Assembly: GCA_012295275.1 (NCBI GenBank)
Contig: CM022679.1
Span: 434,001 to 498,000 of the forward strand
Reading direction: 5' to 3'
Length of the DNA stretch: 64,000 nt
From: Chrysomallon squamiferum
Taxonomy: Eukaryota > Animalia > Mollusca
Shown: positions 14,362 to 59,900 of the stretch, in pieces
Numbering within the stretch: position 1 is the first letter of the stretch
Layout: each line of letters opens with the position of its first letter
Program-made: the position numbers and the translations under genes
The notes under the pieces: model-generated
The model's input: the letters and a program-made list of their open reading frames with translations, nothing else
Database searches by the model: none
What the model was told of the DNA's origin: nothing

Positions 14362-17300
14362 CCGCTTGATCTGATTGGTTCGTCTAATGGCTCCCATGGC
14401 AGCAACTTTGTATTCCTCCTCCAAGTGACTGTACTGCTGCTGTATTCGACTGACACAAAAATCAATACCAGAAAATATATAAATAATGTCACATACAAAT
14501 AGATGTATTATCTTACAAATATAATGTCATATATCATACATCATGTGTATGTAACATAACATCATGTACATGTATAATATAAAATCATATACAAATAAGA
14601 TATAATGTCAAATATCACATCATACAATCAAAAGATGGATGTTTTATCAAGATTCTGGTTAAGCACCTCCCTGTCTCAGTACAAATAAAAGATATTAAAA
14701 GAGTAACTCATGCCATGTTAACACTAGATTTCTTTTATTTTAACATTACATTTGTTATATACAATCTGTTACTATTAGAATAGCCACATTTATGTTTTAC
14801 ACGTTTATTTAATTTATTTATTTACTTTCAAAGAAGGCAAGCAGCTGCTGAAAATTGTTTTATTTAACAATTTAGTGTTAAAATAAATTTGTCGTTTAGC
14901 GTCGCGAGAGTTACTTCCCTTTATTCAATTGCGTTCATTGGAATTAAAGGAAAAATTCTATTCAGACTGAGACACTTTTTAATCTTATTACAACTAAAGT
15001 ATTTGTATTATTAGTTTGGAGATTGTACGACGTATGTAAACAATGCTGACTTATTACAAAGCAGTAACAAATATGTAAACTGAATATTTATAAAATGTTT
15101 AAACTAAATTCTTCTTACCTGATATTTCTCTTCAGCTGTTCAATTTCTCTTCTCTGAAAAAAAAAAAAAAAAAAAAAAAAATTGAATTACAAAATTTTTA
15201 TATATATATATATTTTTTTCATCTTCTTAATGTAAATTTTATCCTGTAAATTTTAGGTTAAAAAATATATTAAAATATTTGATTTAATTACATTTTTTTT
15301 CTAATAATTAAATTAAATAGTGTGATTTGAGATTTATTTTATAAAACAGTGATAAAGTAAATGAAACTAATTTACTAGCAGTACACATTTTACTACATAC
15401 AACACTAATTAAATTTTAAAAATAAAGAATTGCTAATTAATTATTTTAAAACATTTCTCGTTAATAAACACAATATTAAATAATTATTATTATATATAAA
15501 ATATTAGGCCTAATAATTCATTTCTTGTAAAAAAAAAAAAAAAAAAAAAACCCTTAAAAAACACCAAAACAAAAGAAAACTACAGAAACAACAACAAAAT
15601 AAATATTTAGTTTTTTTCTACCATTGTTAACCACACAGCAGACATTAATGTAATAGTAAAATTGTTAAAAAGAAAAAAAAAAAGAAGAATTTTTTAAATT
15701 GATAATGTATCCCAGATCAACAAGGCAAAACCCTTGACCTCATTTCCAGATCTCTGTGAACATTCTGTTTCAGTTTCTAAAACTAAATCTCCATGTCAAC
15801 AAGGGAGATTACTCTAATGCAAACAGTTACAAGAACAAACACACAAACTTTGTTTAATATTTTGAAAAATGAAAATTTTATAATTCCTGTCATAAAGAAG
15901 AAACAAGAACCATAACTCTTTCTTTCTTATCTGCCCTTTCTTTCTACATTTAATTAGAACTCAGTGGTAGAGTCTGACACTCAGTGGTAGAGTCTGACAT
16001 CAAACACACAATTAATGTATTTACCATTCCAACCACTGCTCCATGATTAATAAACAGGTTCTGTGGTATGTGTTTCTGTTTTTACATGATATTTAGCATA
16101 GAAAAGTATCTATGAAAGATTTAATCTTTATCATTATTATATTTTATTTCTTAATTTTATTTGTTGTTGCTATTTGGCTTTATTTTATTATTACTAATAT
16201 TACTGTTATTGTTATTACTATTATTTCTGCTGATACTACTACTACTACTAACATTATTACTATAATAACTATAGTTCTTTTTTTGTTTTTATTATTACTT
16301 TGTTGTTGTTATTGCTGTTGTTATTATTTTTGTTTTTGTTACTGTTGTGGTTGTTGTTTTGTTGTCAGTGTCATTGTTACTGTTCTTGTTACTCTTGTTA
16401 TTTTGTAGTTTATTGTTTCAGTTTCTGTTATTGTAATTGTTGTTGTTGTTGTAGTTGCTGATGTTTTTATTACTTTCTGTATTCCATGGCCGATGTTTTG
16501 CTGCAGTCCGAGTTCTCTTTGTAAAAAGTCCAACTTTCTCTTTTCAGCTTCCAGCAGTCGAAATGTCACCTGAAACACATCATAGACAAGTTAACACACT
16601 GAAACACATCATAGACAAGTTAACACACTGAAACACATCATCATAGACAAGTTAACACACTGAAACACACCATAGACAAGTTAACACACTGAAACACATC
16701 ATCATAGACAAGTTAACACACTGAAACACACCATAGACAAGTTAACACACTGAAACACATCATAGACAAGTTAACACACTGAAACACATCATCATAGACA
16801 AGTTAACACACTGAAACACATCATAGACAAGTTAACACACTGAAACACATCATCATAGACAAGTTAACACACTGAAACACATCATAGACAAGTTAACACA
16901 CCATAGACAAGTTAACACACTGAAACACACCATAGACAAGTTAACACACTGAAACACATCATCATAGACAAGTTAACACACTGAAACACACCATAGACAA
17001 GTTAACACATTGAAACACACCATAGACAAGTTAACACACTGAAACACATCATAGACAAGTTAACACACTGAAACACACCATAGACAAGTTAACACACTGA
17101 AACACACCATAGACAAGATAACACACTGAAACACACCATAGACAAGTTAACACACTGAAACACACCATAGACAAGTTAACACACTGAAACACACCATAGA
17201 CAAGTTAACACACTGAAACACACCATAGACAAGTTAACACACTGAAACACACCATAGACAAGTTAACACACTGAAACACATCATAGACAAGTTAACACAC

Positions 17301-56900: not shown

Positions 56901-59900
56901 TCTAACACCAGCCCTGAGTAAAAACAAACATAAAGTTACAACAAACAAGTATTTAAAATATCAGATCTGTGTGAAAACAAACATAAAATTATAACAAACA
57001 AGTATTTAAAATATCAGATCTGTGTGAAAATACACACACAAAGTTACAACAAACAAGTACTGAAAAATCAGATCTGTATGAAAACAAATCAAGTACTGAA
57101 AAATCAGATCTGTGTGAAAACAAACAAGTACTGAAAAATCAGATCTGTATGAAAACAAACAAGTACTGAAAAATCAGATCTGTGTGAAAACAAACAAGTA
57201 CTGAAAAATCAGATCTGTGTGAAAACAAACAAGTACTGAAAAATCAGATCTGTGTGAAAAGTTGTTTTTCTTACCTGAGTTTTTTCTTTCTGCTCTTAGA
57301 CATCATGGCTTTTGTGGAAAATAAAGCTTTCATTGCAAGTATAACCACTACGTAGTTTACCTATTTTAATAACAAATTTGTATACATCATGAATAACGTT
57401 AGAATAATATGTATTCTTAATAACTAACAAATATTTGTATTATTTAAATTTATTTTACTTACAGCAGTACAAGCAATACACAAAGTAGATGAAATATACT
57501 TCAATTTGTTTTTTTTCTGACAATGAATTTGTTTTACTATGCAAGTATAAACAAAAAGATCATGACAAAATACAAATAGATCAACAGAAATTTGATTTAA
57601 GATTATTTAAAAAAATAAAAAGGTAAAGCAGAAAGTAGATATACATTTTATACTTACTAGAATAACCATCACTGCAGGTGCAACAAAAGCATAAAAGACA
57701 CCACCTTTAGTGTTCACCCAGCAGCTGAAACATTGCAAAAACAACACCTTACTGTTTTTCTTACAGTGAATTGTGAGTTGAGGGGCACCTCCCTTCTAAC
57801 TGCTTTATCTCACACCTATGTTAGACACTTCTCCACAAAAACCTCAGACCTACATCTTAGGTAATAGCGACAATGGACACAAAGTTTGTTATGTTGTTAT
57901 TTAACTAATGAATCCCTTATCTCTGTTTCTTCTCAACAATAAATTAATATACGCTGTTTAAACATGAAGACAATGTTGATGCATTTACAGTAAATACGTA
58001 AGAATAACTCACTGCATTTTATTACCATAACCATGCAGTTCCGTGGCAAGTGCCGAAATAGCAACAATAACAAATGGAACACCTGAAAATATCATAACAA
58101 AAGTTTGGTTAACAAAAAGATCAGCTTTTCTTTGTAAATATTTATAACAATTTCCATTAACATATGTTCAAAAGATGGCTGATATTATCAGACATGCAGT
58201 ACAAAGGTATTTCAAAAATGTTTAGTAAAAAAATTAATTTGAAACCAGTCATCTGGTACTGAAATGGGTCACAATAAAAAAATAAAAAATATTAACATTT
58301 TTTAAAAATATTTATTACTTTTTAGGCTGTGTATAATTATAAAACAAAAAATCAATCTTACCCCATCCACATGAAAGCAATACTATGAGTTTATTGGGCA
58401 GTGCAACAATATATAAAATGGAAACCAGTAAATTTAATGCTTCAGCCAACATTAGGAAGAAAACAGCCAAGAAAAAATAGTGCAACATCATTGCTATTAT
58501 AGTACAAACAGTCTGAAATAAGGTAAAACAAAACAAAAAATACAGAAATAACTAGAGTATAATAATAAAAACCTAACATTTAATTTTTAAATTTTGCATT
58601 ATTATTATTTTTTTTTTACACAGTACAAAAACCAGTGAATATTAAAGTGTTTTAAATCAACAAAAAACAACAAAAACATCACATATATGTGACACTTGTA
58701 TGAGCTACTCTCTGTGAACTGAAGGAATGGTTGGTTGGCAAGAAAGAAATTTGCTGTTTTGTTATTACAACTATCTTACATTAGTATTAAGTGAAAATAA
58801 GACATAAATGTTAAAGCCAAGAAATTAGAAAATGTTCTCACTCTCTCTTCTGTGCGTTCAATACCAAACAGAAATATGACATAGGCTATGGTCAGTGCCA
58901 CACACAGATTTAACAGAAGAACATTCCTGTCAGATTTGATGTATCTGTAACAGAGAGAAACTATCACAGGTTTAGGAATAAAAAAAAATATTAATTTGAA
59001 ATGAGCTTTACTATTTTTATTATATTTCTACATGATGTATCAAGAAAATAGGGAAAAAGTTTTATCATTTTACTATCAAACATTATTATTAAAAAACTAA
59101 TTTCACTGTATGAAGAGCTCTTTGTATGTAGCACTATGACTGAAATAAAAAAATAAAAAAATAAAACACCTTACTTCCATAAGTAGAAGTACACGAAAAT
59201 TGTAGCCAGTGTACACAAGAGTGAGATTGATATTCCAATATTTGATATCAGTCCAAGAACTTTTTTGTTCACATTAGACTATAAAAAGAAAAACAATATC
59301 ATTTAAAAAAAGGAAATAAAAAACAAAACAAAACAAAAATTCTTTTTTTTTAAATTTAAATCATGCAGCTTGATTATATCTATCTATCTATCTTTATATA
59401 AATATCTATATATGTGAGCATTAAAAAGATATTCAAGATACAATTAAAAAAAAGAAACAACTTTGTTTTTCTTGTCAGAGAAGATTTACATTTGACCAAA
59501 TCTCACCTTCCTCATAGATGACAGACATTACATATTGTTACTTGATTTCATACTCCTTCCTCAGAGATGACAGACATTACACATTGTTACTTGATTTCAT
59601 ACTTAGTTATGAAGTGTACTTACTATTTTGTTAGGATGCATGAGGACACCAAAATTGGTGAGATGGTCACAGGCACAGCCAATGAATGATTTGTTTTCAA
59701 ATGTCTTCCAACACCCCTTGGATAACCATCTTCCCTTGGATTTTAAACTGTTTTATACAAACATTTTATTACAAATGTATGTACAAACTTAACTATGACA
59801 ACTATCTCTCAAATTTCTGTAATGGTTTTAGTTAAACTGGTTTATAAGTTTTAAAAACAATGATTGCTGAAACAATTTCTTTTTATTTATAATACAAGTA

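What the first reader, a model, noticed from the sequence alone, without database searches (positions are those of the whole stretch)
16570..57274. Splice sites as the seeds of tandem arrays: a recurring pattern across three genes
Seen in the sequence: three large minisatellites (16570-17577, 43466-44540, 45040-45427) and a single duplication (41441-41484) have repeat units containing an actual exon-intron junction. Each large array stops exactly at the functional splice site, giving 10-34 near-identical decoy donors or acceptors in a row. In both POLR3E arrays any decoy use creates an immediate in-frame stop. Inference: either junction sequence is preferentially amplified in this genome, or these arrays are copy-number-variable splice-decoy banks that tune productive versus NMD-targeted mRNA. 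Tandem duplication across AG|GT is a known route to intron gain, but I do not recall long decoy arrays as a described genome-wide feature.
Basis: partly seen in the sequence, partly recalled or inferred. Interest (0 to 1): 0.8.

Follow-up and report, generated by a model that had tools for sequence, protein, structure and literature searches.

The report
Snail splice-junction "mirage" minisatellites
Three genes of what is likely a snail carry short pieces of their own intron ends copied head-to-tail 9 to 34 times right up to an exon border, a kind of repeat already described in lancelets and human genes, and likely a tolerated copying by-product that splicing would mostly skip rather than a regulatory switch.

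Summary
The arrays are real. In a gastropod-like genome four minisatellites end at exon borders: POLR3E intron 5 acceptor (49 bp x22), POLR3E intron 4 donor (40 bp x10), an acceptor of an unnamed gene (29 bp x34), an adhesion-GPCR acceptor (35/53 bp x9). Only the POLR3E units cross the junction. Two public DNA runs hold both POLR3E arrays; contig depth hints at far fewer copies in one. RNA contigs showed neither true nor decoy joints, so decoy use is untested. The two arguments for design fail: a junction-spanning array must end in the copy that continues into the exon, and all 8 phase-2 introns here give the same immediate stop. Enrichment is unresolved: 4 of 7 high-copy arrays hit junctions (0.5 expected, post hoc), but local duplications overall do not (6/78 versus 27/435). 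The kind is published: amphioxus 'mirages' and human F7, CBS, 6-16 and ABCA7 VNTRs; in ABCA7 decoy use did not track copy number. This scan noted the same pattern before in at least eight other genomes' windows and once elsewhere in this genome. New member of a known kind; low interest.

The parts
16570..17576 (-). Array A: about 34 units of 29 bp (some 32 bp), each a candidate branch point, T-rich tract and TTTCAG; 31 decoy acceptors upstream of the real one; no exonic base in the unit
16474..16569 (-). Coding exon of an unnamed coiled-coil gene (VTFRLLEAEKRK...), served by the last unit of array A
   Evidence: P0004 match begins at the same acceptor; open frame with neighbouring exons
41454..41484 (-). 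Single 31-nt copy of the POLR3E exon 11 donor region (41568-41598), 114 nt inside intron 11; one decoy donor of equal score
43361..43471 (-). POLR3E exon 6; weak TAG acceptor with an in-frame alternative AG 3 nt downstream
43466..44540 (-). Array B: 22 units of 49 bp = last 43 nt of POLR3E intron 5 plus first 6 nt of exon 6; 21 decoy acceptors; 3 units carry a variant that makes a CAG|GT site (44125, 43978, 43880)
44764..44846 (-). POLR3E exon 5, between arrays C and B
45041..45427 (-). Array C: 10 units of 36-40 bp = last 15 nt of POLR3E exon 4 plus start of intron 4; 9 decoy donors; the two units next to the exon are the most diverged
45413..45534 (-). POLR3E exon 4 (RPC5 domain)
45569..45586 (-).
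56914..57260 (-). Array D: about 9 units of 35 and 53 bp that fill 347 of the 361 nt of an adhesion-GPCR intron and end at its acceptor; units end in CACAG/TACAG, the real one in CTCAG; no exonic base
56787..56913 (-). Adhesion-GPCR exon (7tm_2, helices 6-7) served by the last unit of array D
37177..47110 (-). POLR3E (RPC5) coding span, 18 exons
50904..63881 (-). Adhesion GPCR, 3' part; 14 exons modelled in one open frame, 4 further upstream exons tentative
8080..29041 (-). Unnamed gene, tentative 6-exon model; the three central exons (16569, 15153, 14449) are phase-consistent, the outer ones are my inference

Best explanation
Four minisatellites and two small duplications sit at exon borders of three genes; each likely began as one chance local duplication of 29-53 bp that took in a splice site, was likely tolerated because splicing would keep using the copy next to the exon, and then likely grew and shrank like any VNTR. 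Shown: the arrays, their units, the junctions they touch, their presence in two public DNA runs (POLR3E arrays), and that every decoy leads to a premature stop. Forced by geometry: in a tandem array of a junction-spanning unit only the terminal copy continues into the rest of the exon, so the array must end at the working site; copies that grew into the exon would be removed by selection on the protein. Inferred from human and amphioxus cases: the exon-proximal site is used nearly always, the nearest one or two decoys leak a few per cent, and such transcripts would be cleared by NMD as ordinary splicing noise. Expansion by slippage or unequal exchange is inferred from general minisatellite biology.
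For: Unit anatomy. DNA runs X2 and X5 each give one 560-bp single-copy contig between arrays B and C, and in X2 the unit contigs stand at 3.7, 8.3 and 7.1 times that depth against 6.0, 10.1 and 6.3 in the assembly; in X5 at 2.1, 1.2 and 1.05 against 10.9, 7.3 and 6.3, which for array C fits about 4 donors instead of 10: a hint of ordinary VNTR variation. The CAG|GT unit variant shows in X2 and not in X5. Stops are the default: 8 of 8 phase-2 introns, 14 of 30 donor sides and 16 of 30 acceptor sides of the modelled introns give an in-frame stop within 40-49 nt; arrays A and D give late, frameshift-type stops. With arrays collapsed, local duplications are as frequent in deep intron as at junctions (6 of 78 against 27 of 435 windows, P 0.62). 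The splice AG is lost in 2 of 25 units of array A. Precedents: F7 uses only the first donor, amphioxus mirages do not disturb splicing and vary in length, ABCA7 one-unit retention is about 2%, NMD-sensitive and independent of VNTR size.
Against: No RNA joint was seen for the true exon 4-5 or 5-6 junction, nor for a decoy, so use of the proximal site is not shown here. High-copy arrays hit junctions more often than a uniform seed model gives (4 of 7 against 0.5, P 0.0005; all arrays 4 of 21 against 1.1, P 0.018, and 0.065 with the loosest setting). [quoted passage not shown] The tool warns that contig depth is no copy number, and 42 pieces were not shown.
Confidence: 0.78

Rival explanations
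1. Junction DNA is preferentially amplified in this genome: duplications that take in a splice site expand to high copy number more often than others, through a mutational bias (for example transcription- or chromatin-linked slippage at exon borders). Neutral in effect, so compatible with most of the best explanation; it differs in the origin.
For: 4 of 7 arrays with 5 or more copies inside the three genes end at a junction, against 0.3-0.8 expected (P 0.0001-0.002). Two further junction-spanning duplications in POLR3E. Amphioxus papers call mirages possibly general in that group. Earlier notes of this scan report the pattern in many invertebrates (unchecked).
Against: The window was picked for this pattern out of a very large scan, and the copy threshold was chosen after seeing the data. 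Local duplications of any size are not enriched. Short repeats that could seed slippage are not more frequent at intron ends (acceptor 1.9, donor 1.2, deep intron 1.6 per window; P 0.66 and 0.65). The model of the unnamed gene is tentative; missed exons would raise the expectation. Arrays between the genes were left out.
Confidence: 0.3
2. The arrays are selected decoy banks: copy number sets the share of POLR3E mRNA sent to NMD.
For: All 21 + 9 POLR3E decoys give a premature stop; decoys score like real sites; copy number seems to vary. Three units of B carry a CAG|GT that could bound a poison micro-exon. In ABCA7 a donor-containing VNTR does change splicing (exon skipping) with length.
Against: Stops are the default outcome. 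Four unrelated units in three unrelated genes. A several-fold copy difference between two runs in an essential polymerase subunit suggests weak constraint (inference). In ABCA7 decoy retention and NMD effect did not track length; F7 decoys are silent. The 79-nt unit contigs in both RNA runs carry no loose end towards exon 5 (weak, contigs drop rare variants).
Confidence: 0.05
3. The arrays are assembly artefacts (collapsed or over-expanded long-read repeats).
For: The assembly has at least one likely base error: an extra base in POLR3E exon 10 near 41851 that breaks the frame against the homologue.
Against: Runs X2 and X5, of two studies, hold unit contigs of B and C and both flanks; X2 depth ratios and unit variants agree with the assembly. 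Units carry structured variants.
Confidence: 0.03

Closest known systems
Amphioxus 'mirage' minisatellites (Adh3, troponin C, globins BflGb6 and BflGb9, PGBD5); PMC3087553 and PMC3902484, passages read; the original Adh3 paper known only through these
   Same: [quoted passage not shown]
   Different: Here a gastropod-like genome; 22-34 copies against 3-7 in the globin and PGBD5 cases; two of the four arrays stop at the AG and hold no exonic base; splicing outcome not shown here.
Human F7 IVS7 37-bp VNTR, with 6-16 (IFI6), CBS, LMNB2 and PDGF as listed in PMC1557585 (abstract, introduction and passages read)
   Same: First unit spans the exon-intron boundary, the donor is reiterated 4-25 times; array C (40 bp, 15 exonic bases, 9 decoys) has the same build.
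   Different: All listed cases are donors; three of the four arrays here are acceptors. Site choice was tested there (first site, sometimes the next two), not here.
Human ABCA7 intron 18 25-bp VNTR (PMC5954066; passages and section 21 read)
   Same: Unit starts at the splice site with no exonic base (like A and D, mirrored); use of the next unit gives a frameshift, premature stop and NMD; length varies widely.
   Different: Donor side, GC-rich; length changes exon 19 skipping but not decoy use; disease link. No such effect tested here.
Internal tandem repeats at exon-intron boundaries of human duplicated genes (PMC2812944, passages read) and intron gain by tandem duplication
   Same: Variable tandem repeats at exon-intron borders.
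   Different: Those can create new introns; the arrays here lie at borders of introns whose flanking exons align with the homologue without insertion, so no intron gain is seen.

Membership tests
mirage minisatellite | Tandem repeats whose unit spans an exon-intron boundary | tested here: met
   B: 43 intronic + 6 exonic nt; C: about 15 exonic + 25 intronic nt
mirage minisatellite | Unit spans the boundary (arrays A and D) | tested here: not met
   Units end at the AG with no exonic base; they are junction-abutting, ABCA7-like, and work like mirages rather than strictly being them
mirage minisatellite | Copies carry AG or GT splice signals | tested here: met
   31, 21, 9 and 14 decoy sites
mirage minisatellite | Length varies between alleles | tested here: inconclusive
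mirage minisatellite | Regular splicing is undisturbed (authentic site used) | tested here: inconclusive
   RNA contigs of X8 and X9 showed no joint and did not cover exon 5
F7-type splice-donor VNTR | First unit spans the exon-intron boundary, donor reiterated in the intron | tested here: met
   Array C
F7-type splice-donor VNTR | Most upstream donor is selected | not testable with these tools
   Only the first donor keeps the frame and the homologue fits it, but no raw RNA reads were offered
Regulated unproductive splicing (AS-NMD, poison exon) | Stop-bearing isoform is made at measurable, regulated level and rises under NMD block | not testable with these tools
   No raw reads and no NMD-block data among the 11 runs listed
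Regulated unproductive splicing (AS-NMD, poison exon) | Element conserved across species | not testable with these tools
   No eukaryote genomes are searchable; no genome held
Intron gain by tandem duplication across AG|GT | New intron made of the duplicated sequence at a position lacking in relatives | tested here: not met
   Arrays lie inside longer introns with unique sequence (B, C, A), and only 3 of 21 B units hold AG|GT; intron positions of relatives were not available

The most novel reading that the evidence does not exclude
In this snail lineage, duplications that capture a splice site are preferentially driven to high copy number genome-wide, and allele length (plus unit variants such as the CAG|GT in array B, which outscores the weak real acceptor) measurably shifts how much POLR3E mRNA is lost to decoy splicing, making mirages a heritable expression dial and a natural genome-wide assay of acceptor choice.
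Probability: 0.1. Interest if true: 0.6.

Novelty: new member of a known kind. Interest (0 to 1): 0.17.

Why it matters
As it stands it is ordinary: more examples of a repeat type named in amphioxus and known from human genes. The acceptor arrays (21-31 near-identical 3' splice sites ahead of the real one, with natural length alleles) would be handy test material for how 3' splice sites are chosen, a side less studied than the donor side in the papers I read. If a genome-wide test showed real enrichment, it would point to a mutational process tied to exon borders, which I did not find described.

Tried and rejected
Genome-wide test: no genome held. RNA test of decoy use: the first laying gave no result; the second (44400-45125, about two units of each of B and C plus exon 5) found in each RNA run only one 79-nt contig of the B unit and one chance match in an A/T-rich stretch; exon 5 had no RNA cover, no joint was listed, and a hole proves nothing; the unit contig may be DNA carry-over or pre-mRNA. 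Naming the third gene: phmmer against 1.84 billion representatives gave 2 bacterial TPR proteins, judged spurious; Pfam 0 hits for 2 exons; Atlas best score 0.79, no lead. GPCR homologue search: 0 of 3 candidates passed. Microhomology excess at intron ends as a cause of bias: not found. Decoy-like sites in 11 control arrays away from junctions: 0-3 donor-like and 0-1 acceptor-like sites each, so splice-like units are not typical of this genome's other arrays. Runs X10 and X11 (organism B) hold next to none of the words: no information. Caveats: control windows include the partner copies of junction duplications, and collapsing moved array D's hit to the donor of its intron. Supplements of the papers were not opened; those of PMC5954066 (Table S3) and PMC3087553 (alignments) bear on the quoted claims.
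Full report
Setting. The window is about 30% GC and full of simple repeats. No whole genome is held. One exon matches human RPC5 and, at 85%, RPC5 of the gastropod Gigantopelta aegis; the two halves of my POLR3E model match that protein at 84% and 76%, so the organism is likely a gastropod. Three genes lie on the minus strand: POLR3E (18 exons, 47110-37177), an adhesion GPCR (14 exons in one open frame of 494 codons, two exons matching Pfam 7tm_2) and an unnamed coiled-coil gene (tentative six exons) whose exon 16569-16474 matches an ORF from another organism beginning at the same acceptor.

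The observation. TRF confirms the arrays. Cut into units: A (16570-17576) is the last 29 nt of an intron, ending in TTTCAG, with no exonic base; B (43466-44540) is the last 43 nt of POLR3E intron 5 plus 6 nt of exon 6; C (45041-45427) is the last 15 nt of exon 4 plus the start of intron 4; D (56914-57260) fills almost a whole GPCR intron and ends at its acceptor, with no exonic base. The duplication is a 31-nt copy of the exon 11 donor region 114 nt into the intron. A second, decayed duplication lies across the exon 4 acceptor. Decoys number 31 (A), 21 (B), 9 (C), 14 AG sites (D) and 1.

Are they real? Eleven runs were listed, five of which hold 0.87-0.95 of the words of 36100-46050, two RNA runs 0.15-0.17; all are contigs. 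Laid on 44400-45125, DNA runs X2 and X5 (two studies) each give a single 560-bp contig between B and C and short contigs of the units. In X2 the unit contigs stand at 3.7, 8.3 and 7.1 times single-copy depth where the assembly predicts 6.0, 10.1 and 6.3; in X5 at 2.1, 1.2 and 1.05 where it predicts 10.9, 7.3 and 6.3. For C the X5 figure fits about 4 donors instead of 10. One unit variant shows in X2 only. B and C are therefore not artefacts and are probably length-variable; the tool warns that depth is no copy number and 42 pieces were not shown, so this is a hint. X2 could share a source with the assembly.

Decoy use. Not resolved. Each RNA run gave one 79-nt contig of the B unit without a loose end, no cover of exon 5 and no joint. 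That neither shows the true junction nor excludes decoy joints.

The two arguments for design. First, the arrays stop at the working site. For a unit that spans or abuts a junction this is forced: only the terminal copy continues into the rest of the exon (reasoning from the anatomy). Second, decoys give stops. They do: C at codon 2, B at codon 3 or 8, but A at codons 9-45, D at 3-54 and the duplication at 26. It is the default: all 8 phase-2 introns of POLR3E and the GPCR give a stop at codon 1 or 2 if the donor is read through, and 14 of 30 donor sides and 16 of 30 acceptor sides have an in-frame stop within 40 and 49 nt; units of 29, 35, 40, 49 and 53 nt also shift the frame.

Enrichment. 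I annotated 78 junctions. Placing one unit of each intronic array at random within its gene, 4 of 21 arrays hit a junction against 1.1 expected (P 0.018; 0.0035-0.065 over four settings), and 4 of 7 arrays with 5 or more copies against 0.5 (P 0.0005). Arrays between genes and three wholly exonic ones were left out. A different test, local duplications of any kind in 70-nt windows after collapsing arrays, gave 6 of 78 junction windows against 27 of 435 intronic windows (P 0.62; controls include partner copies). Short seed repeats are not more frequent at intron ends. The window was chosen for the pattern and the copy threshold afterwards, so the small P values cannot be carried to the genome. 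A bias in expansion stays possible.

Points against my reading. Decoys score as well as real sites on a matrix trained on this window: A 7.0-9.2 for most against 7.6, C 7.6-8.4 against 8.4; the real acceptor of B is weak (under 2) and three units carry a CAG|GT scoring 9-10. The TAG of B is intact in 21 of 21 units, while A has lost the AG in 2 of 25 units; there are too few variable positions to test selection.

What is known. PMC1557585 (abstract, introduction, passages) describes the F7 37-bp VNTR whose first unit spans the junction and lists 6-16, CBS, LMNB2 and PDGF; only the first, or the first three, donors are used. PMC3087553 (passages) describes 'mirages' at both 5' and 3' borders in amphioxus, length-variable, not disturbing splicing, and proposes them as a route to intron gain; PMC3902484 (passages) adds PGBD5 and troponin C. 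PMC5954066 (passages, section 21) shows for ABCA7 that retention of one unit gives a stop and NMD, at about 2%, independent of VNTR size, while skipping of the next exon rises with size. PMC2812944 (passages) covers repeats at exon-intron borders in human paralogues; PMC10078293 (passages) catalogues 9537 human repeats tied to splicing. I found F7 by my own search; the term 'mirage' and the two amphioxus papers came from earlier notes of this scan, which report the same pattern in other genomes, and once in this genome. No genome-wide enrichment study appeared; the library lacks most subscription papers.

Verdict. Real, known kind. Most likely tolerated VNTRs seeded by chance duplications at junctions (0.78); a junction bias in expansion is open (0.3, compatible); selected NMD tuning is unlikely (0.05). 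Interest 0.17.

Noticed in passing
window 41849-41853 (minus strand, POLR3E exon 10): One extra base in a short C run breaks the reading frame against the Gigantopelta homologue; both sides are open and conserved. Likely an assembly error; not checked on reads.
   Followed up: partly
window 10135-10380: A 60-bp x4 array is bounded on the minus strand by ACAG|GTAG at both ends and ends in a strong acceptor-like site (score 12.5); could be a fifth junction array or a whole intron made by duplication across AG|GT, but no flanking exon could be supported.
   Followed up: partly
window 44125, 43978, 43880: Three units of array B carry a variant making TTTTCAG|GTACAT, a stronger acceptor than the real one and a possible donor; seen in run X2, not in X5.
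   Followed up: partly
window 39853-40026: Three decayed copies of a 65-69 nt unit begin 10 nt inside POLR3E intron 14, next to its donor; perhaps an old array of the same kind.
   Followed up: no
window 50912-51053: A 42-bp coding minisatellite (14-aa repeat, 3.4 copies) in the C-terminal tail of the adhesion GPCR.
   Followed up: no
window 52700-53750 (minus strand): GC-richer stretch inside a long GPCR intron with broken ORFs and a 253-nt-spaced repeat of a Cys-rich piece; looks like a decayed transposon (by eye, no search run).
   Followed up: no
window 43471-43468: POLR3E exon 6 has a TAG-AAG tandem acceptor; both keep the frame and differ by one Glu.
   Followed up: no
window 8080-29041 (minus strand): Unnamed coiled-coil gene of about 170 aa with no Pfam match for the two exons scanned; only one anonymous homologous exon found.
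   Followed up: partly
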